From IMG/VR virus record IMGVR_UViG_3300019752_000001: DNA of 64,000 nucleotides; one strand, given 5' to 3'. The stretch is from a virus. The position numbers were made by a program, and so were the translations under genes. Shown here piece after piece: positions 6,946 to 59,207 of this stretch (positions within the stretch are counted from its first letter, which is position 1; every line of letters starts with the position of its first letter). The notes under the pieces are model-generated. The model saw only the letters and a list, made by a program, of their open reading frames with translations, ran no database searches and was not told the origin of the DNA.

Positions 6946-8658
6946 CTACATAACACCAAGCTTACTACGGATCTCAGATAGAGTGTATTGGTTGTAGAGT
7001 TCACCATCCTCAAACACAACCTTCAGCTCCCCTTGAGCTTCCTGTTCAACAGTTTGGTTATCATATGTCACATACATCTCCTGTCCATCTTCTCCCTTCT
7101 CAAGCTCAACACGTAACAATCCTTCACGAGAAGCCTTAGACATATCGGTCTTAGGAGTTTTGTTCATACCAAAACCTTCACCACCTACTACGGAGTAACC
7201 TCCCTTCAACGCAATACCATAAGAATCTCGTGAGGAGTTTTTCAGCTTAGCCCAACTACCAACACCAAGCAATAGGTTTGTTACACAGAATCCTAATTCT
7301 TCCATACGGCTATAGATAGCTTCTTGCATCTCCATTGTAATAGCTTCTCCGTAGATCAGTCCAACAGAAGGATGCAACACTTTATAACCTTTCTCGTTAA
7401 CCACCCCTCCAAACACTTCCCAGAGTATTTGTAAACTACCCTTCACTTCTTCTTCTGAGATTTCCTTGTAACTGAGGTTTCCATCAACTTCATAATATTT
7501 ACCTGAAGTTTTGCACCGGAACACCTGATAACCTCGTTGTATTAATGATGGGGTGATGAGGTTGTTAAGACCCCGTCCTTGTAGGTAAGGTCTGAAGTTA
7601 GGAATATCTTTATACCGTTCACCACAAATAACTTCTAGTGGGGTTTTAGGGCTGCTATCAGGACGGAACACAAGCTTACCAGGCAAACCTAAAGAGTCTG
7701 GCTCACGGGACACAATTACAGGTTCAAGCTTAGCAGCTAGCTCTGAGATAACGTAATAGTAATCTTTACTATCTGCTACATAACTCAGAATGCCACGTGG
7801 GTAAACATCTGTCAGGAGACGCTTAAGACTCTCTTCTTCACTTCCGTAATAATGGATACCTTGTGTGGTTGTTGCGTGTTCAGTTGCATTAACAGAGACG
7901 CCAACCCATTCCTTATCACTATCTGCACCATAATATTGTTCAAGTCCATCAATAGCCCATAAAGTGTCTGTTCCAACACCAAACATAAGGTGTGCTACTC
8001 CAGACATCATAGCATCCTGATCACCACGCAGACCACGAGCTGAGAAGTCATGGTTAGCAATAGGCAACCAAGCAGCAGCTGCTTCTGGAGTAGCAGTCTT
8101 CTCAGCCCAGCGCTTACTTGTCAGGAAATACTGTTGAGCTACGGATGCAGAGTTACACATTGACCACACCATACAACTCAGGAATGTCTCACAATTGTTT
8201 GTCAACCAGAAGAAGCGATCATCTGTATTAACTACTGTGAAGAATGGTGTGTTCTTATTAACCAAACTACCTTCAGGGAGGGACTTAATACGCAGAGGAA
8301 GATAACCTAGATCATGTAGGTCAGCCATAGCAGCAATCTGTACATCTCCGTTGTCAGGGCCTACACAGTTTTTAACCCGACGACGATAGGCATTGATAAC
8401 TTTTTCTTTAGGCTGACTGAAGAATGTAGCATTCCAGTTATCCTTCAACATGTGTACAGCCAACTGAACACCCACCATCACCATCTTATCGGTGTTGTTC
8501 TGAGGGATTGTGTGAGCCAGTCTGAAGTTACGAGCTGTACAGCTGCTGTACACTACCTCTGTTCCAGGGACATACTGTTCAATATGACCTAGTTTATAAG
8601 CATCTGTCTTGTGAGCTTGAGAGATGGCGAAAATTGAATTGTTCATTGTGTTAATCAT
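6946..8658 (-). CDS. nadV: Nicotinamide phosphoribosyltransferase-like protein; probable NARP1 Namat
   Basis: TDAYKLGH, HDFSARG, SVNATEH, SYVADS, FRPDS, GLIYGE, GVGS motifs; near a Prs homolog. Confidence 0.9.
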   Translation of the reverse strand: MINTMNNSIFAISQAHKTDAYKLGHIEQYVPGTEVVYSSCTARNFRLAHTIPQNNTDKMVMVGVQLAVHMLKDNWNATFFSQPKEKVINAYRRRVKNCVGPDNGDVQIAAMADLHDLGYLPLRIKSLPEGSLVNKNTPFFTVVNTDDRFFWLTNNCETFLSCMVWSMCNSASVAQQYFLTSKRWAEKTATPEAAAAWLPIANHDFSARGLRGDQDAMMSGVAHLMFGVGTDTLWAIDGLEQYYGADSDKEWVGVSVNATEHATTTQGIHYYGSEEESLKRLLTDVYPRGILSYVADSKDYYYVISELAAKLEPVIVSREPDSLGLPGKLVFRPDSSPKTPLEVICGERYKDIPNFRPYLQGRGLNNLITPSLIQRGYQVFRCKTSGKYYEVDGNLSYKEISEEEVKGSLQILWEVFGGVVNEKGYKVLHPSVGLIYGEAITMEMQEAIYSRMEELGFCVTNLLLGVGSWAKLKNSSRDSYGIALKGGYSVVGGEGFGMNKTPKTDMSKASREGLLRVELEKGEDGQEMYVTYDNQTVEQEAQGELKVVFEDGELYNQYTLSEIRSKLGVM

Positions 8659-23789: not shown

Positions 23790-24137
23790 TCAGTTCTCCA
23801 CTCCGCTGGCTGCAACCGTCAGCATAGCTTGTACTACCTCTAACCTAATCCTCTGACTAAAATCTACCAAATTCTTAAGCTCAATAGTCAGGAAGTATCT
23901 CCCTACCGGAAGGAGAGCTGTCTCTTCAGGTTGTAGGTAGAATACGAAGGAGGTGTTATCCACACTCTTACCTAACAGTCCTTGCATTTCAATATCACCT
24001 GTAATAGTCTCATTACGTAATGTATAAGTTCCTATCCAATTTGCTGATGAGATGTCATCAAACTCTGTGAATCTGAATATCTCCTCACTAGAGTTATCTC
24101 CTTGTACCAATGAAATACTGCTTATTAAACTTTGCAT
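23790..24137 (-). CDS. Virion/fibre-associated protein (BppU N-terminal-like)
   Basis: QGD...L.PEETALL.VGRY pattern; start ATG 24137 after GGAG. Confidence 0.55.
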   Translation of the reverse strand: MQSLISSISLVQGDNSSEEIFRFTEFDDISSANWIGTYTLRNETITGDIEMQGLLGKSVDNTSFVFYLQPEETALLPVGRYFLTIELKNLVDFSQRIRLEVVQAMLTVAASGVEN

Positions 24138-24357: not shown

Positions 24358-26979
24358 CTAAACAGGTTCTCTTCTTAGAATGTTCATATTAGTTGGTTGC
24401 CCTGCTTCATCAAACAGATTGAATGTTCGCAACACGGTTGTATTATCAGCTTCATACATGATTAGTTGAGTTCCTACAATCTCCCACCTACCGAGCAGCC
24501 CATTCTTAATATCTACTACATCCTGTGTCAAAGTGTTTAAGTCTGGATTAGTAGGAGCTACATAATCAGCTGCTAACAGGGCATTGTCTGTGCCTCTCAT
24601 ATTCCTGGCATCCACTGTATCTGTGCTTGCGTCAAACTCACTACGAGAACTAACTGTTGTATCCAGATTAGCTAGGCTATCAAGCCTAGTGTCAGCAGAC
24701 TGTAGAAGACTGGACACATCAGCTTGGTAATCGCCTTTATTCATGTAACTATCCAGTGCTGTGTGTATATCTGTGTCAGATGTATTGCTGAGAGCCTCTA
24801 GAGCCGTCCTATCAGCAGAGTTGAAGGCTGAGGTAGGTAATGTACTAACTGTTGTAGAAAGGCTGTCTATGGAGGTCTGAGAGGCTCTGGAGGCTACAGT
24901 GGCTTCCTTAGCTACTACGGAGGAACTTTCCACCTCGGTTACAACCCCTGTTACAACATCAGCTACAGAGATGTTATTGAGTGCATCTATCGCAGCTGTA
25001 AGAGAAGTTGTAACTGCAGCTACTTCAGTAGAAGAGGCTCTTGAACTTATCACTTCGTCTACACGATCATTAATCAGACTTCTTAAGGCTGACCATTCCA
25101 TTCCAACAGATCCCGGCAAAGTGAACTCTGAAGTCTGTGCATTCCATACATCCTGCGATGACACAAAGTTAGCTAACACAGCCTGTAAAGGTTGTCCATT
25201 CTGCCAGAAGCTAAAGTCACCTACATTTACAGGGTTTGCAACAGGAGCTACTACATCATCTATCCAGACACTTCCATCATCACTCTGCGCACTGAATGTT
25301 AGAGTTAGTACACCATCTACACCAGATGTTTGAGTACCTGATACAGTGAACTGTTGGAACACATCATCAATATCCTGTATAGTGAATGAGCTAGGTGTTA
25401 TCCCTAACCCTGATAAAGTTGCTGTTGGAAGATTAGTACTACCATATGCACTACTTTTTCTTATGTAGCCTGATACAACTACTGGAGTGTTTGTTGGTGC
25501 AAATATATCCAGGGTAAAAGTGAAGGGTGCTGAATCATCATTTAGATCTATTCTTGCTGAAGGTGCTGAAGTCCTTGCTATGGTATTATCTCTGAATAGG
25601 CTACCAACTCTCCTATGTGTCTCCTGGTTCCTGGGGTTTCTATCTCGGTTGCTTATCATTATTGCAGCGGACTCAGAGGCATTTTCTATATTAGCTATAA
25701 AGTTTGTTGATGTCCCGAACAAACAATCAGTACACAAAACCTCACTCACTGCATTATTGTTAACTAGGAAAGGTCTTAGTAGTTCTGTACCAGTGGGACC
25801 AAACACACTATCTATTACTCTATGAGCTGATCCAAAACCTAAGGTAAAACCATTATCTGATGACCTAAACTCACAATCTCTTATCAGGAAAGAGTTACCA
25901 GTACCTATCGATATACACTGTAAACTTCCCGAGAATACACACCTGTTGAATACCGGATTAACCCCGCCTTGTGAGAAACCTGACAACACTGCAATCTCTG
26001 TTCTATGGAAAAGGGAGTCCTCAATCGTACAGGTAGACCCTTGCCTTATAGTAACACCATTACCTTCTACATCGAATGCTAAGTTAGAAGCTACTACTCT
26101 TGACCCTATAGAAAAGAAGTCAACTCCATAGTCACCATTAAAATCTGTAAAGGTGCAATCTCTAAAGGAGTTTACAGCATCTTGTGTTGTAGATCCGAAT
26201 GCAGTGAACCCTAAACCTGCTCTAGTAGAGCCAGATACATAACTAATATGATTAAATTCCGTTTGAACAATATTCTTTATACGTGCACTAAGAGTGTGTA
26301 TACTTAACTGTACAAACGTTACAAAGTTTTCATCTGTAGCTTTCACCACAACACTCTTACTCATATTAGAGAGGTATTGTCCTTGTGGATGCACCTGGGT
26401 TAAAGCTGAAGATAGGGTTATTGTATTACCTGACACCCCACTTATAACAACCCTTTCCTGTCCTGTTCTTAACGGAGTTGGAGACATGAGGATTAGGTTA
26501 TCCCCTACCATCCAACCTGTGGCGTCCTCTACTTCAAGTGTTGTACTTCCTAATGCCGCTACTGCAGTAGTTTGTGTGTTAGTGGTCTTATCAGCTCCTT
26601 GAAAGGATATGTTAGTATCTCCGTCTGTCCACATACCCCACTTGCCTGATGCTAAGGTATCAGAATTGTTAAGGTTTATTGTTGCAGATACAGTCAGAGG
26701 TATTGGATCAGCTTGTGTTCCATAGTCAAAAGATCCTGTGCCTTCTACTCGCAGATCTCCCTTTACAGTTAGGTTTGAAGTAACACTCCTGCTAGCCTTC
26801 AAAGTTCCTCCTGTGAAGACTACAACACCTCGGTTTGTATCATCCCCCCAATTATACACACTGTCTATTGTACATTCATGTCTAATCTCAACACTGTCAT
26901 CTTCAACAGGAACAACACCCCCAACCCATGTAGATGTGGCAGAGGCTAGCCCGTCTTGCGCTGTAACTATTGTAGCCAT
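24358..26979 (-). CDS. Tailspike/fibre protein with G8-like domain and parallel beta-helix
   Basis: N-terminal ATSTWVGGVVP..DDSVEI.H (G8-like); repeated CTF/CVF/CEF/CLF beta-helix rungs; helical C-terminus. Confidence 0.7.
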   Translation of the reverse strand: MATIVTAQDGLASATSTWVGGVVPVEDDSVEIRHECTIDSVYNWGDDTNRGVVVFTGGTLKASRSVTSNLTVKGDLRVEGTGSFDYGTQADPIPLTVSATINLNNSDTLASGKWGMWTDGDTNISFQGADKTTNTQTTAVAALGSTTLEVEDATGWMVGDNLILMSPTPLRTGQERVVISGVSGNTITLSSALTQVHPQGQYLSNMSKSVVVKATDENFVTFVQLSIHTLSARIKNIVQTEFNHISYVSGSTRAGLGFTAFGSTTQDAVNSFRDCTFTDFNGDYGVDFFSIGSRVVASNLAFDVEGNGVTIRQGSTCTIEDSLFHRTEIAVLSGFSQGGVNPVFNRCVFSGSLQCISIGTGNSFLIRDCEFRSSDNGFTLGFGSAHRVIDSVFGPTGTELLRPFLVNNNAVSEVLCTDCLFGTSTNFIANIENASESAAIMISNRDRNPRNQETHRRVGSLFRDNTIARTSAPSARIDLNDDSAPFTFTLDIFAPTNTPVVVSGYIRKSSAYGSTNLPTATLSGLGITPSSFTIQDIDDVFQQFTVSGTQTSGVDGVLTLTFSAQSDDGSVWIDDVVAPVANPVNVGDFSFWQNGQPLQAVLANFVSSQDVWNAQTSEFTLPGSVGMEWSALRSLINDRVDEVISSRASSTEVAAVTTSLTAAIDALNNISVADVVTGVVTEVESSSVVAKEATVASRASQTSIDSLSTTVSTLPTSAFNSADRTALEALSNTSDTDIHTALDSYMNKGDYQADVSSLLQSADTRLDSLANLDTTVSSRSEFDASTDTVDARNMRGTDNALLAADYVAPTNPDLNTLTQDVVDIKNGLLGRWEIVGTQLIMYEADNTTVLRTFNLFDEAGQPTNMNILRREPV

Positions 26980-37188: not shown

Positions 37189-39696
37189 TTAGATCAGGAT
37201 AAACACACGTGCAAATACCTGCTGAATAGCACCTGAGTAAGTAAACTCAACAACCACATCCCGCAGTGTACGGTTTGCAATGTCATTGTCAGGGATCTCA
37301 CTACGTGCTGGAATCCTCACTACGGCTGCATCTACTCCGTCTTGTGGAGTGAGTATTGCATTACGACGGATGGCTACGTTAATAACCTGACCGTAAATTA
37401 CTTGACGGATTTGTTCAAATCCTGTATCTCCGAAAACCACTTTTCGTCCCAGATCACTCTCTCTTTTAAGCAGACCAAACACAGCCTCTGCAATTCGAGC
37501 TTTCATCCACAGACCAAACCTCACATCATCGAAGAACAGACCACTCTGGTTAACACCATTGTCGTAAACAGCTACTCCATTTACTAAAGGATAGATGTTA
37601 GAGTTTTTACCTTGAATACGGTTTTGCTCAGTAGAACTAAACTCTGTAACGCTGACACCAGGCATACTCTTGAACGCTAGGATACTTTCACCAGGGTTGA
37701 TTGATGCAATAGCCCCGATAACTCCACCTTCAGCTTGTTCCTCAAGTCGCTCATCAGGAACTGTCAATGTGTGTGTGTTGTCTAGTTGTGCATTCATCAA
37801 CTGACTAGCAATATCATCATCTGCAGTAGAGGCTACAGTAGATGCAGGGATAGTGGTGATGTACATTTTATCATTTGCTTGAGCATAACGACCAAGAGCA
37901 AGCTGTGTAGTTGGAGTTTTATCTTCAGCTGACAAGAAGAACCAAGAGTCATCTTCACCAGCTGCCTCTGCAAGAGCTTCCTCTGTAGTTTCAGCTCCTA
38001 TGACAGTGTTCATCAGGTTATCTGTGAGAGAGGATAGAGACACATCCTGATTCAGGTTTGGTGTAATACTTAGAACATTTCCATCTACACCAGCTACAAG
38101 CGCTGTATTAAACACACCTGAGTTATTGATCTGATCAGACAGTCCTTGCAAGATCTCTGTGACAGTTGGTGTGGTATCTGATGTATACTCAATAGTCTGA
38201 GATACAGATGCTGAGGTTGCTTCTAAGTCGAAAGCGTATCGTACACCACCCCCTCCTGTTGTAGGGTCTACCACAAACTTATCAAAAGAGCTTGAAAGGT
38301 TTGAAGAAACGTTAGTGATGTTTACCGTAGTACCTCCTGTCGGGTCAATAAGTAATTGCCCTCCTGAAACACTGGCTGTAACAACTCCCAATAAGGCAGC
38401 AGTTCCTGTAATATCTGCTGCAAGGGCATCAAGGATTTCTGATTCAGGGGTGAAATTTGTGCCTGTTGCAGAGATAGTTGAAGTAATCCCTTCAGAACTT
38501 ATGTCAAAGGAGAAGGTTGATGGACTGTCAACCAAGTTCAACAAGTAATATCCGTTATAACCTTGCGCTCCTAGATCTACAGAAGAAACAGAAACTTGGG
38601 TAGTTCCATCAATAGGTTTTATCAACAACCTTAGAGCTGTAGCTCCAGTGGCTGTTGACCTCTCTCCTACCAATTTACCAGTGTAATCTGGGTCATTGTT
38701 TATTTGTGAAGTTATACTAGCTATATCTCCTGTGAAAGTTTTTTGGGCTACCCCTGAAACATCGAGAGTTACTGATAGGCTCGTACCAGCAAAAGTAGAG
38801 GTAATTACAGAACCACTAACATAGGTTACATCTATATTAGGACTACCAGTTAATTCATCACCAGCCAATGTGACTACAGTACCATCAGCGTTAGTCCCTA
38901 TGCGTTGCTCAAATACATAAGCAAAACCATCTGAAGGTGTTATAACTTCAGTCAACCCACTATTTACATCTTCAACCTCATAAATAGCTGGAATGTTACT
39001 ACCTGAGAGAGGCCAAGTAGTCTGCAGTGCAGCTAGTAACCCTGTTTCTACTTCTAATTTAGTAGGTGTGGTATCTGAAGTAAACGTAGATGTAGTACTA
39101 TCGAAAGTTATAGAGTAGTCTTGGGCACCAACCCCAGAGGTCACATCAATAGAAAACTGATTAATATTCCCTTGCAAGTTTGCTGACAAACCTGTTACAG
39201 TTACTACGTTGTTTCCTTGAGGTGTGATTTCAAGATTGTCATTAACATTAGCAGCTACTACAACACCTGTTAACAGGCTATTGCCTGTAATAGCTGCCAC
39301 CAATCCATCTACAACAGCTTGTTCGCTAGTAAGCTCTGTACCTGTGAATGTGATAGTCTGAGGCGCTACACCTACAGCGATAATAGTGAGGAAATACTCA
39401 ACACTACCTGGCAATACACTTACCTCAAACCGTGTAAAACTCTTCTTACCAATCATTACAGTTTGAGGACGGAATGTACCAGAGAATACATTTGTAGCAA
39501 ACCGTACAGCTGCTGACGTAGGACTCCAACCATCACCAGTCATCTCATCTACATCATTATATGTACGGATACGCTCATTAGCATCAAACAGGTTTGTTTC
39601 AGTTAGGAATAATGGGGTGTTAAAATTTGCTGTATCAATTGGACGAGTAGCCCGGCTGACAATAACGTCAACATATTTACGAATATTAGTTGTCAT
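37189..39696 (-). CDS. Tail sheath protein (DUF3383-like) with large repeated-domain insertion
   Basis: N-terminal FNTPLFL..ERIRTY; C-terminal AFKSMPGV, FFDDVRFGLW, YSGAIQ. Confidence 0.88.
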   Translation of the reverse strand: MTTNIRKYVDVIVSRATRPIDTANFNTPLFLTETNLFDANERIRTYNDVDEMTGDGWSPTSAAVRFATNVFSGTFRPQTVMIGKKSFTRFEVSVLPGSVEYFLTIIAVGVAPQTITFTGTELTSEQAVVDGLVAAITGNSLLTGVVVAANVNDNLEITPQGNNVVTVTGLSANLQGNINQFSIDVTSGVGAQDYSITFDSTTSTFTSDTTPTKLEVETGLLAALQTTWPLSGSNIPAIYEVEDVNSGLTEVITPSDGFAYVFEQRIGTNADGTVVTLAGDELTGSPNIDVTYVSGSVITSTFAGTSLSVTLDVSGVAQKTFTGDIASITSQINNDPDYTGKLVGERSTATGATALRLLIKPIDGTTQVSVSSVDLGAQGYNGYYLLNLVDSPSTFSFDISSEGITSTISATGTNFTPESEILDALAADITGTAALLGVVTASVSGGQLLIDPTGGTTVNITNVSSNLSSSFDKFVVDPTTGGGGVRYAFDLEATSASVSQTIEYTSDTTPTVTEILQGLSDQINNSGVFNTALVAGVDGNVLSITPNLNQDVSLSSLTDNLMNTVIGAETTEEALAEAAGEDDSWFFLSAEDKTPTTQLALGRYAQANDKMYITTIPASTVASTADDDIASQLMNAQLDNTHTLTVPDERLEEQAEGGVIGAIASINPGESILAFKSMPGVSVTEFSSTEQNRIQGKNSNIYPLVNGVAVYDNGVNQSGLFFDDVRFGLWMKARIAEAVFGLLKRESDLGRKVVFGDTGFEQIRQVIYGQVINVAIRRNAILTPQDGVDAAVVRIPARSEIPDNDIANRTLRDVVVEFTYSGAIQQVFARVFILI

Positions 39697-41844: not shown

Positions 41845-42213
41845 TTACAAGCCTCCTCCTTTCCATCTGGCTGGACCATTTGTACGAGAGTCGATATGTA
41901 CAAAGGTTTTGTATAGTCCGAAACCGTATTGGTCTGGATACTGATTGCAAAGGTAGTTGTATAACCCCTCAGGATCTAGTGTAGGAAGATCCATAGCACG
42001 ACCTTTAAGGTGTTGAGAGTGCTTTGTACCCTTCTCAGCTGCGTTGTGAACTGCGCAACGAGCACCAGAGGTAGGTTTGATAGGGTGACGTACAAAGTCC
42101 CTGCATTCATCAGCTAGAGCCAGTGTAACCCCATCCATTGTGTCAAACCCGCAGCCACACTTACAGGCTACTTCGTGACGATAGAAATGTTTACTAATTT
42201 TTTCTTTAGGCAT
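41845..42213 (-). CDS. Endolysin, peptidase M15A family
   Basis: HF...E.ACKCGCG, TSGARC..HN, SQHLKGRAMD, FVHIDSR. Confidence 0.9.
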   Translation of the reverse strand: MPKEKISKHFYRHEVACKCGCGFDTMDGVTLALADECRDFVRHPIKPTSGARCAVHNAAEKGTKHSQHLKGRAMDLPTLDPEGLYNYLCNQYPDQYGFGLYKTFVHIDSRTNGPARWKGGGL

Positions 42214-42326
42214 AATTTTCCCTTCATTGTTATAAAGCCTGAGAAACAAGCCTTATAAGGATGAAAAGTGATGAATAGAAAAGGTAATGTTATGATGTAA
42301 AGTTATAATACGTAAGATACGAAAAT

Positions 42327-42371
42327 GCCCAAGCTCCTACGTAGAGGGGAGGCTACGAAGAGGCTTGGGTC
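42327..42371. other. Imperfect hairpin at the distal end of the tRNA transcript (possible terminator or processing site)
   Basis: CCCAAGC..CGTAG...CTACG..GCTTGGG. Confidence 0.5.
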
Positions 42372-42430
42372 TTATTTAAGTATTACTACTTGTTAATACT
42401 TGCATATAAATATACTTGTATAAATACCCT

Positions 42431-42519
42431 TAGCAGCCTCATGGTGAATCGAACACCTCCGCTCCATCCGTCTGCTGTAATGCGACAGGCTTAGAAGGCC
42501 CGTGACGGAAAATGAGGCT
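42431..42519 (-). ncRNA. Non-canonical tRNA-like RNA, anticodon TCT (Arg), no classical D-arm
   Basis: AGCCTCAT/ATGAGGCT acceptor (extends to 13 bp), CGGGC-CTTCTAA-GCCTG anticodon arm, GGTG-TTCGATT-CACC T-arm; ends GCTA rather than NCCA. Confidence 0.75.
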
Positions 42520-42639
42520 GCTAAAAATACTTACAAAAATACTTAGTGTTGTTTATTTAATAATGAAGACTGGAAGATGAATATCTACACCTTATACATG
42601 TGTAGTGGGATCTTTACACAATCTTCATTGTTAAATATT

Positions 42640-42727
42640 TGGAGGCCCTACGGTGAATCGAACACCTTGACATCCTTCCCTCTGTTTTGTGTCGCAAGCT
42701 TAGGAGGCTTGTGAGGGGAGTAGGGCC
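42640..42727 (-). ncRNA. Non-canonical tRNA-like RNA, anticodon CCT (Arg), no classical D-arm
   Basis: GGCCCTAC/GTAGGGCC acceptor + T-CCA, CAAGC-CTCCTAA-GCTTG anticodon arm, identical 4-bp T-arm. Confidence 0.8.
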
Positions 42728-42731
42728 TTGT

Positions 42732-42805
42732 TGGAGCAGGCGACGAGAATCGAACTCGCATCTTCTGGTTGGAAGCCAGAAATTCTACCATTAAACTACA
42801 CCTGC
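42732..42805 (-). tRNA. tRNA-Gly(TCC)
   Basis: GCAGGTG acceptor, TAGTTTAATGGTAGAA D-arm, TCTGG-CTTCCAA-CCAGA, GTTCGATTC, TCCA end. Confidence 0.95.
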
Positions 42806-42806
42806 T

Positions 42807-42881
42807 TGGTGCCTCCGACTGGTAACGATCCAGAGTCTTCCCGGTTATGAGCCAGGCCGCTTTACCTTAAGCTACAAAGGC
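42807..42881 (-). tRNA. tRNA with CAT anticodon (Met or Ile2)
   Basis: GCCTTTG/CGGAGGC acceptor, CCTGG-CTCATAA-CCGGG, atypical T-loop ATCGTTA, ACCA end. Confidence 0.85.
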
Positions 42882-42890
42882 TACTTCTTA

Positions 42891-43136
42891 TTACACTACT
42901 TCAGTAAACTCCAAAGTCCCTTTCTCAAGATCCTGCTTAGTTTCTCTTAGTAGGTGAGATGATATTGTAGATCTTACCACATCAACCTTTACTATTTCAA
43001 CAAGTTTATCAGGATTGTTTTCAACCTCTTCATAGAATAGATCCAGCATCTCTACAGAGGCATATTCAGCTGCTTGTTTAAAGACTACTGTCTGTCCCAC
43101 TCTTAGCTCGAAACAGGATTTAACTCCATCCCTCAA
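42891..43136 (-). CDS. Hypothetical phage protein
   Basis: 81 aa, GAGG RBS, TTG start. Confidence 0.55.
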   Translation of the reverse strand: MRDGVKSCFELRVGQTVVFKQAAEYASVEMLDLFYEEVENNPDKLVEIVKVDVVRSTISSHLLRETKQDLEKGTLEFTEVV

Positions 43137-56030: not shown

Positions 56031-59000
56031 CTACACAACCTGTGTTGTTGATAAAGCACCCACAGTGTTAACTTCCAACCTCCACCTTGAATTGTCTGTA
56101 GCTACTAAGATAGTCCCCTCCCCTACGTTAACTACATCTCCTTGACTATTCCTAACAGTTAGTTGTGTGTCCAGATCAACAATAGTAGAGTGAGTGTACT
56201 TAGTACTGAACAGACCAAACTGAGGAAGTGTTGCATGGTTCTCAAGGTCAGTTATAGTAGAGCTGATCGGGTCAAAGTCTTTGTAGTTGAGGAATGTATT
56301 ACCTTCTCCTGTAGCTACTAGGTGCCCCCCTTCTGAGCCACCAAACAAAGTTGTGTATGCATAACCTGTATCAACCTCCGTTCTATCACCAACAAGGACT
56401 AAGGTGTCAGTTGTACTAGGTTTAATAGCAAAGACTTGACCTTGTGGATGCTCAAACTCAAGAGGAACCTTCCTGACAGTAGCAGGTGTAGAAGGTACAA
56501 CCCTTGTCTGAGAGAATGACAGTATAACCTGAATATCATCGATAGTAGGGAGTCCTGTACGTACACTCTCTGTTACACTGACACGTATTTCTCTACTAGA
56601 AGCTCTCCACAAGACCTCTACAGTGGCAATCTCTCCGCCATCATCCAGAGTGAATGTTGTAGAAACCTCACTCCCACCGCCCACACCAGTTAAGGTTGTA
56701 GAGGATGTACCAAAGATGTTACCATTCGAATGTCCTCTGTATGCAATGTTCAGAGTTGTAGTAGAGGTTGGAATATTCCTTGTGAAGAAAACTTCATCAG
56801 CCTCTGGAACTGGAAAGCCACTCTGTGTAGTAAGAGTTGGAACTGTCTGCCAAATACCTGCACCACTTACACGTGTAGGCTGAGCTGGATAGATAGTATC
56901 GACAGTAGAACCTGAAGGTATTGCAGGTACAAACACTTTAGCATTGAACACACCATTAACGTACTCAATCAGATCTCTCGATGTAGCTCCGTCAAAAGCT
57001 GATAGGTAGGTAGAGTTTGTATAGGTTGTTCCAGCAGGGAAGTAGAGGAGCTTACGTCTAACCTGATCACCAGACAAATCACTGATAGGTTTAGAAGTTG
57101 TTACACCTGATCCAGGAGTGTTTGGGGAAGGTTCATAAAAGACTGTCTGAGATGTGTTAGAACTACCAGCGAGTTGCTTGTTATAATCTGTAGCGATTAT
57201 AGTAGGAGTTGTTTCTTCAGTCACCTCTACTTGGTTTTCAAGGACATGAACAATAGCATCTGGTAAGTTCAATATCCCATGTTCAAGCTCAGCATCAATC
57301 CTGGAAATATCATCTTCAAGATTATTAATGTCATCAGGCCATGCTACAACTCTCTCGGAAGTTATACGATCAACTTCATACACATCACCAGAGATGAGTC
57401 CTGTAACACGATAAACAAAGTAAGTGTTAGTTCCATCAGTCAGTGACTCACCAAGATCAACAGTAACCTCAGAGTCTTGTAGAGGGGTTGAGGTATCTTG
57501 TGTGATGTTGTTCAGTGTGTATGAGGCCCCCGCCACTGTGGCTACATACAGTGCTATATCCCCTCCTGTGAACCTCGGATTATCAACACTAACCTGAGTA
57601 AGATCTGTCAAAGCTGCTGGGAATGTATCTGATCCTGTACTATCAAGGAAGAGAGCTTCACTATCAGGAAATACCTGTGTGACCTCTTTGTAAGGTGAGA
57701 TACGCTGCTGAATAGACTGGAGTGAAGCACCATCATTATCGATATCCTCAGCCAGAGAACCAATCTTAGCATCAACCCTAGACTCCGCTAAAGAGGCTTC
57801 TTGTTGAGCTATAAAACGTACAGCATCATTAAGCCTACCTTTAGTATTGTTAACCCACCCATTGATTGTGTAGGAGCCATTATAAGAAGCTCCTCTAAAC
57901 TGATAGTTGAGAACAAGGTTTGCATTCGTATTAATAGAGGTTGTGTAATCATCAGATGGAATATCAATTGTTACAAGGGCAGCCCCAGAATCAACACTAA
58001 TTCCTGTAAGAGGGAATGTAAAAGATTTATTATCAAGCTCAATAACAAAATCTATAAGCTCTGGTAGAGAACCTGAGGAATTGATAGTAGAGAAAGAAAT
58101 ACTCAAGGTCATTTGTCCGCCGACGATATCAGCAAACTGTACAGGTTGGTCATTATACCTCAAGCTTCTGGCGGTATTACCACTACTACTACCTCCTATT
58201 AACACCTGCCTTGTAAGAGGTAGCCCTGTAGCTCCTGATGTAGTCTCTGCGACGTTTGCTGGGTCAACCTGAACATTCCTACTACCGTTAAACCTGATCC
58301 CATCCTGCACGAAGTTATCAAGGAATGCAGCCTGCTTAGAATTGACTCGTGGGTTGTCTAGCAGTAACCAGTCCTCATTAACTACTTCATCAACAAGAGA
58401 GGCATTATTAACAAGGGCTACTAAGATAGATCCAGAAGGTATTGTAGAGTCACCTGAATACTGTCCCCAATCACCTCCTGTCTCAACCAAGTAAGCATCA
58501 CCAGCTACAATGGTCACACCAGCAAGCTCAGTAGTTGTGGTTGTGGCATTACTGATCGGAGTGTCAACTTTTAGATTAAATATACCAGTAGGTAGGATTG
58601 TATCATTAGGGTCGAATGTACCAGAGGAGAACTCATAATCCTGACCAACACCTTCCTTAGTAATAACTGTGACTTGATCCCTAAGAATAGATCCTATCTG
58701 AGTCCCTTCAAGAAAGAACCTTACAACATTCCTGTCAGTGAATACACCACTACCACCAAGATGTGTAAATTCGAAGGTGATTGGGTAGGATTCACCAGAT
58801 GTTGCTATCTGATCTTCCGTAGGTAGATTAACATCTGGCCTGGTAGCACCATCAAGAGCTTTATCATTCCTGGCTGTGTAGATTATATTCTTATCTTCAA
58901 AGGTAGCCAGGTTTGTATCATCAATAGTAAACCCGTCATTGAAGCGTAGGAAAGATCTTCCACTGTTGAAAGCTGTATTCTGAAGGGTTGCTACCTCTTG

Positions 59001-59207
59001 TTGTAACACCCCTACACTATCATCAGTTTCACTCTTATTCGCAGCGACAACACCAGCTAATGTATTTACTTCAGAAAAGCCTTGTTGCGTGTTTGAGACG
59101 GAGGTTGCTATATTTGTAAAAGTAGAGTCATCAACACTTATCTGGTCAGAACTTGTTAATGTTCCTGCAGAGTTCCTTAATTCAAAAGGGAGTAACCTTG
59201 TTGTCAT
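56031..59207 (-). CDS. Large virion fibre/spike protein
   Basis: 1058 aa, T/S/G-rich beta segments with short coiled coils; C-terminal RWRLEV...GALST. Confidence 0.65.
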   Translation of the reverse strand: MTTRLLPFELRNSAGTLTSSDQISVDDSTFTNIATSVSNTQQGFSEVNTLAGVVAANKSETDDSVGVLQQEVATLQNTAFNSGRSFLRFNDGFTIDDTNLATFEDKNIIYTARNDKALDGATRPDVNLPTEDQIATSGESYPITFEFTHLGGSGVFTDRNVVRFFLEGTQIGSILRDQVTVITKEGVGQDYEFSSGTFDPNDTILPTGIFNLKVDTPISNATTTTTELAGVTIVAGDAYLVETGGDWGQYSGDSTIPSGSILVALVNNASLVDEVVNEDWLLLDNPRVNSKQAAFLDNFVQDGIRFNGSRNVQVDPANVAETTSGATGLPLTRQVLIGGSSSGNTARSLRYNDQPVQFADIVGGQMTLSISFSTINSSGSLPELIDFVIELDNKSFTFPLTGISVDSGAALVTIDIPSDDYTTSINTNANLVLNYQFRGASYNGSYTINGWVNNTKGRLNDAVRFIAQQEASLAESRVDAKIGSLAEDIDNDGASLQSIQQRISPYKEVTQVFPDSEALFLDSTGSDTFPAALTDLTQVSVDNPRFTGGDIALYVATVAGASYTLNNITQDTSTPLQDSEVTVDLGESLTDGTNTYFVYRVTGLISGDVYEVDRITSERVVAWPDDINNLEDDISRIDAELEHGILNLPDAIVHVLENQVEVTEETTPTIIATDYNKQLAGSSNTSQTVFYEPSPNTPGSGVTTSKPISDLSGDQVRRKLLYFPAGTTYTNSTYLSAFDGATSRDLIEYVNGVFNAKVFVPAIPSGSTVDTIYPAQPTRVSGAGIWQTVPTLTTQSGFPVPEADEVFFTRNIPTSTTTLNIAYRGHSNGNIFGTSSTTLTGVGGGSEVSTTFTLDDGGEIATVEVLWRASSREIRVSVTESVRTGLPTIDDIQVILSFSQTRVVPSTPATVRKVPLEFEHPQGQVFAIKPSTTDTLVLVGDRTEVDTGYAYTTLFGGSEGGHLVATGEGNTFLNYKDFDPISSTITDLENHATLPQFGLFSTKYTHSTIVDLDTQLTVRNSQGDVVNVGEGTILVATDNSRWRLEVNTVGALSTTQVV

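What the first reader, a model, noticed from the sequence alone, without database searches (positions are those of the whole stretch)
42431..42727. Pair of rewired tRNA-like RNAs: no D-arm, 8/4 acceptor/T geometry, Arg anticodons, covarying pseudoknot
Seen on the minus strand. RNA-2 = GGCCCTAC tcccctca CAAGC-CTCCTAA-GCTTG cGACAcaaaacaGAGGGaaGGaTGTCaa GGTG-TTCGATT-CACC GTAGGGCC T CCA. RNA-1 = AGCCTCAT tttccgtca CGGGC-CTTCTAA-GCCTG tCGCattacagcaGACGGAtGGaGCGga GGTG-TTCGATT-CACC ATGAGGCT gcta. Both have an 8-bp acceptor stem, a 4-bp T-stem and only 8-9 nt where a D-arm belongs. That short segment is complementary to the loop of the long variable arm in both copies with different sequences (TCCGTC/GACGGA versus CCCTC/GAGGG). 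The variable-arm stem also covaries (CGC/GCG versus GACA/TGTC), and a GGA follows the pairing strand in both. Inference: the D-stem is rebuilt as a pseudoknot and the G18G19 equivalent that docks on the T-loop comes from the variable arm, giving a topologically rewired L-shape. The anticodons UCU and CCU read AGA/AGG, which are rare codons in many gammaproteobacteria but are used in this phage (e.g. CAG AGG ATT AGG TTA near 23850). They could be translational tRNAs resistant to anticodon nucleases, or decoys for tRNA-targeting defences. 8/4 allo-tRNAs are known, but they keep a D-arm; I do not know a description of this fold.
Basis: partly seen in the sequence, partly recalled or inferred. Interest (0 to 1): 0.9.

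Follow-up and report, generated by a model that had tools for sequence, protein, structure and literature searches.

The report
Rewired D-armless phage arginine tRNAs
Two genes in this phage's small tRNA operon very probably encode arginine tRNAs (for AGG and AGA) that cannot form the textbook cloverleaf, because half of the D-arm sits after the anticodon arm and pairs back across it. They belong to a large, almost purely viral, unannotated family that I found in no paper.

Summary
Window 42727-42640(-) carries anticodon CCU and 42519-42434(-) carries UCU. Each has an 8-bp acceptor stem, a 4-bp T-stem, a canonical T-loop, an argU-like anticodon arm and no D hairpin. ARAGORN and Rfam miss both.

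They are not oddities. A covariance model finds at least 60 distinct relatives in viral contigs, and blastn finds about 340 cultured phage records. The listed records annotate them as nothing or as "hypothetical protein".

The long-range helix S1 (5' segment with variable-region strand) is paired in 99% of cells, with four Watson-Crick pair types at two positions. This holds even in an alignment whose model did not contain that helix. The crossing helix S2 also covaries, so the pseudoknot is supported.

Several facts favour real decoders over decoys:
- AGA and AGG make up 52% of the phage's arginine codons.
- The window has no canonical tRNA-Arg.
- Relatives with a rewired UCU gene never also carry a canonical one (0 of 13 against 6 of 17).

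Expression, charging and the 3D fold are untested. This scan has reported the same family many times on other phage DNA. What is new here is a CCU/UCU pair in one operon.

The parts
42807..42881 (-). Canonical tRNA(CAU), first gene of the operon. Called Met; a tRNA-Ile2 (AUA) identity is not excluded.
   Evidence: ARAGORN; Rfam RF00005 at 42.4 bits. It starts right after the stop codon of the 81-codon ORF 42891-43136(-).
42732..42805 (-). Canonical tRNA-Gly(UCC), which reads GGA.
   Evidence: ARAGORN; Rfam at 69 bits. GGA occurs 24 times per 1000 codons in the window's ORFs.
42640..42727 (-). RNA-2: rewired tRNA-Arg(CCU), 88 nt with encoded CCA. It begins 4 nt after the CCA of tRNA-Gly.
   Evidence: Sequence. 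Models R1/R2/R3 give 104/93/92 bits. Not called by ARAGORN or Rfam.
42713..42717 (-). RNA-2, helix S1, 5' strand CCCTC. An A and then the anticodon stem follow directly. Equivalent to D-stem 22-25 and position 26.
   Evidence: Pairs with GAGGG at 42678-42682. The minimum-free-energy fold forms this helix. Family covariation.
42695..42711 (-). RNA-2 anticodon arm CAAGC-CTCCTAA-GCTTG; anticodon CCT at 42702-42704.
   Evidence: This helix is 99% paired in the family.
42690..42693 (-). RNA-2, helix S2, 5' strand GACA (variable-arm stem).
   Evidence: Pairs with TGTC at 42669-42672 and crosses S1, which makes a pseudoknot. Covariation.
42673..42682 (-). RNA-2, S1 3' strand GAGGG followed by AAGGA. 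Proposed equivalents of D-stem 10-13 and of A14, G18, G19 and A20/21.
   Evidence: GG-A follows the strand in 54 of 57 Arg members but in none of the 3 non-Arg members. GGAWGG was part of my search patterns.
42669..42672 (-). RNA-2, helix S2, 3' strand TGTC.
42520..42639 (-). 120-nt spacer between the two rewired genes. It folds into a long imperfect hairpin.
   Evidence: Fold energy -26.5 kcal/mol, z = -4.1 against shuffles. Function unknown.
42434..42519 (-). RNA-1: rewired tRNA-Arg(UCU), 86 nt up to discriminator G. CCA is not encoded (CTA follows).
   Evidence: Sequence. Models R1/R2/R3 give 74/67/69 bits. Not called by ARAGORN or Rfam.
42504..42508 (-). RNA-1, helix S1, 5' strand CCGTC.
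   Evidence: Pairs with GACGG at 42468-42472. The minimum-free-energy fold forms it.
42486..42502 (-). RNA-1 anticodon arm CGGGC-CTTCTAA-GCCTG; anticodon TCT at 42493-42495.
42460..42484 (-). RNA-1 variable region core: S2 5' strand CGC (42482-42484), A-rich linker, S1 3' strand GACGG (42468-42472), ATGGA (42463-42467), S2 3' strand GCG (42460-42462).
42325..42372 (-). Terminator-like hairpin followed by CAUUUUCG, closing the tRNA operon ahead of the peptidase M15 gene.
   Evidence: Fold energy -22.9 kcal/mol, z = -4.0. Peptidase_M15_3 ORF at 41845-42249(-). The consensus scanner did not list this hairpin.

Best explanation
RNA-2 and RNA-1 are working arginine tRNAs for AGG (anticodon CCU) and AGA (UCU).

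Proposed route to function (inferred): they are transcribed with tRNA(CAU) and tRNA-Gly(UCC) as one operon and cut out by the host tRNA-processing enzymes. RNA-1 receives its CCA from the host. Host ArgRS then charges them through C35, U36 and the A that follows the conserved GG.

Proposed fold: the body is not a cloverleaf. After an 8-bp acceptor stem and a 2-3-nt linker, a 5-nt strand runs directly into the anticodon stem. Its partner strand lies after the anticodon arm, in the variable region, and is followed by a minimal D-loop (A-W-GG-A). The D-stem (helix S1) therefore closes around the anticodon arm and stacks on it. A short second helix (S2, 3-4 bp) joins the start of the variable region to the nucleotides after GG-A and crosses S1, which makes a pseudoknot.

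Shown here: the sequence anatomy, the family, covariation of both helices, codon use, and the complementary distribution with canonical tRNA-Arg(UCU).

Inferred, not shown: the L-shape, GG docking on the T-loop, processing, arginylation and use by the ribosome. Why phages keep this wiring is unknown.
For: 1. It is a real family. About 57 of 112 pattern hits in viral contigs score 40-104 bits with model R1, against 30 bits or less for ordinary tRNAs. A second pattern added 18 more. Alignments A4 and A5 hold 60 distinct sequences.

2. Helix S1:
- Without any alignment, 40 of 42 sequences were scored as a perfect 5-bp duplex, with 16 different 5' strands (20 distinct duplexes). The other two scored 3/5 because my script took the last GGAWGG-like motif; read by eye from the first motif, both pair 5/5 (not re-run). 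Non-cognate combinations mostly give 3-4 pairs.
- It is 99.3% paired, with CG/UA/AU/GC all present at two positions.
- It is still 99.3% paired in alignment A5, made by model R3, which holds no S1 pairs.
- A structure-blind, APC-corrected mutual-information scan ranks S1 pairs 1st and 3rd.

3. Helix S2. The core pair is paired in all 58 sequences that have letters there, with four pair types. Another S2 pair ranks 4th in the blind scan. Cognate helices are 4-5 bp against 2-3 for non-cognate ones.

4. tRNA hallmarks are kept. The acceptor plus T branch is 12 bp, the T-loop is TTCGATT, the anticodon loop is C-U-NNN-A-A, and 44 of 60 members encode CCA.

5. Arg identity. C35 and U36 are present, and an A follows GG in 54 of 57 Arg members but in none of the 3 Tyr/Ile members. 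Bacterial ArgRS determinants are A20, C35, U/G36 and N73 (PMC9976931).

6. Demand. AGA is 28.8% and AGG 23.6% of Arg codons in the window's ORFs. Several large ORFs reach 60-82% AGR, while the tail sheath has 19%. Together with GGA, and possibly AUA, the four genes resemble a rare-codon supplement set.

7. Gap filling.
- The 64-kb window has no canonical tRNA-Arg.
- Among viral loci with at least 5 canonical tRNAs, 0 of 13 with a rewired UCU gene also have a canonical UCU gene, against 6 of 17 without one. My one-sided Fisher estimate is about 0.02.
- In the large clusters L071, L106 and L128 the rewired gene is the only UCU gene. In L128 and L200 the rewired GUA gene is the only Tyr gene.

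8. Operon context, with canonical tRNAs upstream and a terminator-like hairpin downstream.
Against: - There is no expression, processing or charging evidence.
- ArgRS normally reads A20 inside a normal D-loop. Whether the A after GG is presented in the same way is unknown.
- S2 is only 3-4 bp, and its outer pairs hold in only about two thirds of sequences. One-nucleotide linkers make the 3D geometry tight. I could not model the RNA in 3D.
- Members were collected with patterns that require GGAWGG and TTCGAWT. The invariance of those motifs is therefore partly circular. Only the covarying positions are free of this bias.
- The host is unknown, so 'rare in the host' is an inference from codon heterogeneity.
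- Later checks in this scan priced the 'working non-cloverleaf tRNA' reading at only 30-55% on other members.
Confidence: 0.6

Rival explanations
1. tRNA mimic or decoy. The RNAs fold as described but are not used in translation. They might bind or absorb a host factor that targets tRNA-Arg, such as a nuclease, a modification enzyme or a defence sensor. They might instead serve another tRNA-like role for the phage.
For: The body is unlike any tRNA known to work on bacterial ribosomes, and standard models reject it. The anticodon stem-loop is an exact argU-type copy, as a decoy for an anticodon-loop reader would need. Phage tRNAs that counter tRNA-targeting defences are established (my knowledge, not retrieved here). 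No charging data exist.
Against: A decoy would be expected alongside a canonical tRNA-Arg(UCU). Instead the rewired gene replaces it: 0 of 13 loci against 6 of 17, and it is the sole UCU or Tyr gene in large clusters. Features a decoy would not need are kept: the 12-bp acceptor/T branch read by EF-Tu, the encoded CCA, and an Arg-specific A after GG. The phage's AGR codon load gives a direct translational need.
Confidence: 0.2
2. Working tRNA, but no pseudoknot. Only S1 forms in the mature molecule, giving an extended anticodon helix with a 12-13-nt bulge. The S2 complementarity is transient, a folding aid, or an artefact of relatedness.
For: Minimum-free-energy folds form S1 and leave the S2 strands open. 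S2 is short, its outer pairs fail in about a third of sequences, and its register shifts between subgroups. The geometry looks tight.
Against: The S2 core pair is paired in all 58 sequences that have letters there, with CG, GC, AU and UA. Another S2 pair ranks 4th among all column pairs in a structure-blind scan. Cognate S2 helices are clearly longer than non-cognate ones. The two window copies use different S2 sequences, GACA/TGTC and CGC/GCG.
Confidence: 0.12
3. Mobile-element accessory. The genes persist mainly as cargo or insertion-site mimics of homing-endonuclease cassettes, as earlier notes of this scan reported for other members. They would not persist because the phage needs them.
For: Earlier notes describe HNH genes next to other members. 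One Acinetobacter phage locus has an HNH gene about 60 nt downstream. The 120-nt structured spacer between the two genes is unexplained.
Against: No endonuclease ORF lies beside either gene here. The flanks are tRNAs, an 81-codon ORF and an endolysin-type peptidase. Cargo status would not explain covariation of the RNA helices or the complementary distribution.
Confidence: 0.05
4. Decayed tRNA pseudogenes or a chance resemblance.
For: tRNA finders do not call them. RNA-1 lacks an encoded CCA.
Against: Sixty distinct homologues in unrelated phages keep every helix through compensatory changes. The two window copies are only 65% identical, yet both fold the same way.
Confidence: 0.01

Closest known systems
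Canonical bacterial and phage tRNA-Arg(UCU/CCU) (E. coli argU and argW type; Rfam RF00005)
   Same: Same anticodons. Same anticodon loop C-U-UCU-A-A with a similar stem. Canonical T-loop, a 12-bp acceptor/T stack, CCA, and a position inside phage tRNA clusters. Probably the same job.
   Different: No D hairpin. The D-stem strands lie on either side of the anticodon arm. The stem split is 8/4 instead of 7/5. The 24-33-nt variable region carries the GG motif. There is no RF00005 hit even at E up to 10.
(8/4) allo-tRNAs and (8/4) tRNA-Ser and tRNA-His of bacteria and phages (Mukai et al. 2017, PMC5389517)
   Same: 8-bp acceptor plus 4-bp T-stem and a long variable region. Some of those are also phage-borne.
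   Different: Those keep a normal D-arm and an ordinary variable hairpin and carry Ser or His identity. Neither 'UCU' nor a D-arm-less form was found in that paper's main text; its supplements were not searched.
D-armless mitochondrial tRNA-Ser(AGY/UCU) (mammals; Ascaris suum; reviewed in PMC7609411)
   Same: No D hairpin, only a short connector between the acceptor and anticodon stems. One example even shares the UCU anticodon.
   Different: Those are organellar, truncated and flexible, with reduced T-arms or lost elbow contacts, and they need specialised partners. The phage RNAs are longer than normal tRNAs, keep a canonical T-loop and a GG motif, and rebuild a D-stem.
Class II tRNAs (Leu, Ser, bacterial Tyr) with a long variable arm
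   Same: The stem that begins 1-2 nt after the anticodon stem and ends 2-3 nt before the T-stem (S2) sits where a class II variable stem does.
   Different: The class II variable loop is 3-5 nt and free. Here the 'loop' is about 17 nt and supplies one strand of the D-stem and the D-loop equivalent.

Membership tests
Canonical cloverleaf tRNA (Rfam RF00005; ARAGORN) | Reaches the family score or is called by a tRNA finder | tested here: not met
   No RF00005 match for either gene at the gathering score or at E up to 10. ARAGORN calls only the Gly and Met genes.
Canonical cloverleaf tRNA (Rfam RF00005; ARAGORN) | D hairpin between the acceptor stem and the anticodon stem | tested here: not met
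   Only 8 nt (RNA-2) or 9 nt (RNA-1) lie there, and they pair with the variable region.
Canonical cloverleaf tRNA (Rfam RF00005; ARAGORN) | 5-bp anticodon stem, 7-nt loop with U33 and a purine at 37, and a TTCRANY T-loop | tested here: met
   Loops CTCCTAA and CTTCTAA; T-loop TTCGATT in both. These helices are 99% and 97% paired in the family.
(8/4) allo-tRNA group (PMC5389517) | 12-bp acceptor branch split 8 + 4 | tested here: met
   Both genes have 8 acceptor pairs and 4 T-stem pairs; a fifth T pair is not possible (A.G and A.A). The family figures are 99.4% and 97.1% paired.
(8/4) allo-tRNA group (PMC5389517) | Normal D-arm plus an ordinary long variable hairpin (Ser-type body) | tested here: not met
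   There is no D-arm, and the variable 'loop' is engaged in S1. The anticodons are Arg.
Mitochondrial D-armless tRNA-Ser | Organellar origin, truncated body, loss of the canonical elbow motifs | tested here: not met
   Phage tRNA operon, 86-88 nt, canonical T-loop, and a GG motif in all members sampled. The GG invariance is biased by my search pattern.
Rewired phage tRNA family (defined here by models R1-R3) | Scores far above ordinary tRNAs with the family model | tested here: met
   RNA-2 scores 104/93/92 bits and RNA-1 scores 74/67/69 bits. Ordinary tRNAs score 30 bits or less.
Rewired phage tRNA family (defined here by models R1-R3) | 5-bp S1 enclosing the anticodon arm, crossing S2, and A-W-GG-A after the S1 3' strand | tested here: met
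   RNA-2 has CCCTC/GAGGG, GACA/TGTC and AAGGA. RNA-1 has CCGTC/GACGG, CGC/GCG and ATGGA.
Substrate of bacterial ArgRS (identity set from PMC9976931) | C35 and U/G36; discriminator A/G73 or U73 | tested here: met
   Anticodons CCU and UCU. The discriminator is U in RNA-2 and G in RNA-1.
Substrate of bacterial ArgRS (identity set from PMC9976931) | A20 presented from the D-loop | tested here: inconclusive
   An A follows GG in both genes and in 54 of 57 Arg members, but in none of the 3 non-Arg members. Its equivalence to A20 is an inference.
Substrate of bacterial ArgRS (identity set from PMC9976931) | Actual arginylation and use on the ribosome | not testable with these tools
No biochemical data were found in nine literature searches.

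The most novel reading that the evidence does not exclude
Bacterial ribosomes, EF-Tu, RNase P and ArgRS routinely accept natural tRNAs that are not cloverleaves. In these phage tRNAs the D-arm is assembled from strands on either side of the anticodon arm and is locked by a pseudoknot. This phage decodes both AGR arginine codons only through such molecules. The rewiring would be an adaptive alternative tRNA architecture, for example invisible to a host factor that reads the normal D-arm or core.
Probability: 0.5. Interest if true: 0.9.

Novelty: new variant of a known kind. Interest (0 to 1): 0.8.

Why it matters
tRNAs used by bacterial translation are taught as invariably cloverleaf-shaped, and the exceptions are organellar. 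A widespread phage family with a different strand topology would matter in several ways if it is charged and decoded.
- It would show that the L-shape can be reached by another wiring, and would redefine what ArgRS, EF-Tu, RNase P and the ribosome actually require.
- It would give tRNA engineers a natural non-cloverleaf scaffold that might prove orthogonal.
- It exposes a blind spot in annotation. About 340 cultured phage records carry members, and every record I listed shows them as nothing or as 'hypothetical protein'. Phage tRNA repertoires and codon-adaptation analyses therefore miss their AGA/AGG decoders.
- Members exist in phages of tractable hosts (Escherichia phage Av-05, Salmonella phage Arash, Acinetobacter and Vibrio phages), so the question can be tested directly.

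Tried and rejected
- Own genome and close relatives. No genome is held for this window. Megablast of 6 kb found nothing in the phage collection. The tail-sheath protein finds only 30-35% relatives. A same-locus comparison with a sister phage was therefore impossible.
- Canonical fold. No D hairpin can be drawn, and no Rfam family matches even weakly.
- Circular permutation or an intron as an explanation. Rejected, because both acceptor strands are in their normal places and no excision restores the canonical order.
- Bacterial reservoir. In viral contigs about half were true members. The family is virus-enriched, but the bacterial count is not exhaustive.
- Tertiary covariation. I looked for U8-A14-like and Levitt-like pairs by mutual information and found nothing convincing beyond the helices. 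A frequent A-U opposite pair flanks the anticodon stem in the 26:44-like position (39 of 60).
- Whether tRNA(CAU) is an AUA-reading tRNA-Ile2. Acceptor-stem determinants were ambiguous, so this is left open.
- Literature. Nine searches and five papers read gave no description of this fold.
- HNH association reported by earlier notes. Not seen at this locus.

Full report
**Observation**

On the minus strand the window holds a compact tRNA operon. In order it contains:
- tRNA(CAU), 42881-42807
- tRNA-Gly(UCC), 42805-42732
- RNA-2, 42727-42640, which begins four bases after the CCA of tRNA-Gly
- a 120-nt spacer
- RNA-1, 42519-42434
- a strong terminator-like hairpin, 42372-42325
- a peptidase M15 gene

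Both RNAs have an 8-bp acceptor stem, a 4-bp T-stem (GGTG/CACC), the T-loop TTCGATT and a 5-bp anticodon stem. The anticodon loops are CTCCTAA and CTTCTAA. Only 8 or 9 nt lie where a D-arm belongs, and the variable region is 28 nt. RNA-2 encodes discriminator U plus CCA. RNA-1 has discriminator G and no CCA. ARAGORN and Rfam report neither gene, even at E up to 10. No ORF of 50 codons or more overlaps them.

**Not an isolated oddity**

blastn found unannotated relatives inside the tRNA clusters of Acinetobacter phages (Bestia, CRR8, AM24 and others). It also found two tandem copies (CCU and UCU) in the T5-like Aeromonas phage AhSzw-1.

I built a covariance model from six sequences. About 57 of 112 pattern matches in viral contigs scored 40-104 bits with it, while ordinary tRNAs in the same loci stayed at 30 bits or below. 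A second pattern that left the anticodon free added 18 members.

The final alignments hold 60 distinct sequences: 53 UCU, 4 CCU, 2 GUA (Tyr) and 1 UAU (Ile).

blastn with two other members hits about 340 cultured phage records. About 300 are Vibrio phages and 32 are Acinetobacter phages. The rest include Aeromonas phages, Escherichia phage Av-05 and Salmonella phage Arash. Every listed row is annotated 'none' or 'hypothetical protein'. The Av-05 and Arash copies score 91 bits.

The family is therefore essentially viral.

**Structure**

Helix S1 joins the 5-nt strand before the anticodon stem to a strand in the variable region.
- Without any alignment, 40 of 42 sequences were scored as a perfect 5-bp duplex, with 16 different 5' strands (20 distinct duplexes). 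Two scored 3/5, which I traced by eye to my script taking the last GGAWGG-like motif; from the first motif both pair 5/5. Non-cognate combinations mostly give 3-4 pairs.
- On the model-made alignment S1 is 99.3% paired, with CG, UA, AU and GC all frequent at two positions.
- To avoid circularity I built a third model that contains no S1 pairs. In its alignment S1 is still 99.3% paired.
- A structure-blind, APC-corrected mutual-information scan puts only proposed helix pairs in its top 15. S1 pairs rank 1st and 3rd, and S2 pairs rank 4th and 15th.

Helix S2 joins the nucleotides just after the anticodon stem to those just after GG-A.
- Its core pair is paired in all 58 sequences that have letters there, with four pair types.
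- Its outer pairs are weaker, and the helix is 81% paired overall.
- Cognate S2 helices are 4-5 bp against 2-3 for non-cognate pairings.

S1 and S2 cross, so the covariation supports a pseudoknot. One caveat applies. My collecting patterns required GGAWGG and TTCGAWT, so the invariance of those motifs is partly built in. The covarying positions were not constrained by the patterns.

**How I read the fold (inference)**

The 5' strand of S1 continues through one A into the anticodon stem, so it occupies the place of canonical positions 22-25 and 26. In 39 of 60 sequences that A faces a U that follows the anticodon stem, which resembles the 26:44 pair.

The 3' strand of S1 usually begins with G, as position 10 does. 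It is followed by A-W-GG-A, which reads like positions 10-13, then A14, G18, G19 and A20/21.

In this reading the D-stem and a minimal D-loop are all present but threaded in a different order. S2 sits where a class II variable stem would. The stack of anticodon stem plus S1 has about the normal length, and the 8/4 split keeps the 12-bp acceptor/T arm. I could not model the 3D fold. The one-nucleotide linkers around S2 look tight.

**Function**

Several independent observations favour real decoders.
- **Codon demand.** AGA and AGG are 28.8% and 23.6% of arginine codons in the window's ORFs (12.0 and 9.8 per 1000 codons). Several large genes reach 60-82% AGR, while the tail sheath has 19%.
- **Gene set.** With GGA at 24 per 1000 codons and AUA at 17.7, the four operon genes look like a rare-codon supplement set.
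- **No alternative.** The window has no canonical tRNA-Arg.
- **Complementary distribution.** Among viral loci with at least five canonical tRNAs, none of 13 with a rewired UCU gene also has a canonical UCU gene, against 6 of 17 without one. My one-sided Fisher estimate is about 0.02.
- **Gap filling in large clusters.** In L071, L106 and L128 the rewired gene is the only UCU gene. In L128 and L200 the rewired GUA gene is the only Tyr gene.
- **Arg identity.** C35 and U36 are present. The nucleotide after GG is A in 54 of 57 Arg members and T or C in the three Tyr/Ile members. That pattern fits an A20-like ArgRS determinant (identity set from PMC9976931).

A decoy would more naturally sit beside the canonical gene. 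It would not need the EF-Tu-sized acceptor branch, the CCA or an Arg-specific A. Even so, nobody has shown that these RNAs are made, charged or decoded.

The anticodon stem-loop is unchanged from the argU type. Escape from a nuclease that reads the anticodon loop is therefore not explained. Any evasion would have to concern a factor that reads the D-arm or the core. Why the rewiring is kept remains open.

**The two copies**

The two genes are only 65% identical. RNA-2 is closer to UCU genes of Acinetobacter phages (76-77%) than to RNA-1. They are old paralogues or separate acquisitions, not a recent duplication. Both keep the same fold with different S1 and S2 sequences.

**Comparison with what is known**

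- Canonical tRNA-Arg shares the anticodon arm, T-loop and context but not the core.
- (8/4) allo-tRNAs and phage (8/4) tRNA-Ser and tRNA-His share the stem split but keep a D-arm (PMC5389517).
- Mitochondrial D-armless tRNA-Ser lacks the hairpin but is truncated and organellar (PMC7609411).

Nine full-text searches found no description of this topology.

This scan has reported the same family repeatedly on other phage DNA, including Ile and Tyr versions. Its later checks kept the observation at about 85-93% and priced the 'working non-cloverleaf tRNA' reading at 30-55%. My tests were run independently and agree.

This window adds three things. It has a CCU/UCU pair covering both AGR codons in one operon with canonical tRNAs. 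Its codon usage demands those tRNAs. It also supplies a quantified complementary-distribution test.

**Verdict**

The most likely function is decoding AGG and AGA (confidence about 0.6). A mimic or decoy role is the main rival (about 0.2). The finding is a new variant of a known kind, of high interest, and directly testable in E. coli, Salmonella, Acinetobacter or Vibrio phage systems.

Noticed in passing
window 42520-42639 (-): The 120-nt spacer between the two rewired genes folds into a long imperfect hairpin (-26.5 kcal/mol, z = -4.1). It could be a processing signal, an internal terminator or a relic of an inserted element.
   Followed up: partly
window 42807-42881 (-): The tRNA called Met(CAU) might be a lysidine-type tRNA-Ile2 that reads AUA, which occurs 17.7 times per 1000 codons here. 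Its acceptor stem has U4-A69 and U5.G68 and does not settle the question.
   Followed up: partly
window, whole (for example 24358-26979, 56031-59207 against 37189-39696, 6946-8658): AGR codon use is strongly heterogeneous between genes. It is 60-82% of Arg codons in several large ORFs but 8-24% in the tail sheath and some other large ORFs. This may reflect expression level or a mosaic origin.
   Followed up: partly
L074, L113, L085, L063, L007, L044 (viral contigs): A subgroup has a 10-nt 5' segment (G-T/C/A-A-G, then the S1 strand) and an A.C mismatch at the first T-stem pair. It can also be drawn as 7/5 with a free U8. The rewired core is therefore not tied to the 8/4 split.
   Followed up: partly
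L128 3907-4001, L200 8182-8276, L188 8732-8830: Family members with GUA (Tyr) and UAU (Ile) anticodons. In L128 and L200 they are the only Tyr genes of clusters with 20-30 tRNAs.
   Followed up: partly
L088 2807-2897, L147 8988-9079, L071 155-245 and 9154-9243: ARAGORN-92-nt tRNA-Ile(UAU) genes here. In L088 there is a small D hairpin plus a long ordinary variable hairpin, so this is a class II-like tRNA-Ile and a different oddity from the rewired family.
   Followed up: partly
L020 798-890: ARAGORN does call one rewired member, as a 93-nt tRNA-Arg(tct). Detection by standard tools is therefore erratic rather than nil.
   Followed up: no
L230 388-476 (Anaerolineae MAG contig CAKZJX010000007.1): This is the only true family member among 120 pattern matches in bacterial and archaeal genome contigs. 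ARAGORN finds no canonical tRNA in the 8-kb locus. It may lie in a prophage or a mis-binned viral contig.
   Followed up: no
L345 1479-1568 (Escherichia phage Av-05) and L346 1501-1592 (Salmonella phage Arash): Unannotated family members scoring 91 bits occur in cultured phages of laboratory hosts. In Av-05 the gene sits between tRNA-Thr and tRNA-Cys. In Arash the record's feature table shows it in the gap between two hypothetical-protein genes (the search summary had listed 'hypothetical protein' under the match).
   Followed up: partly
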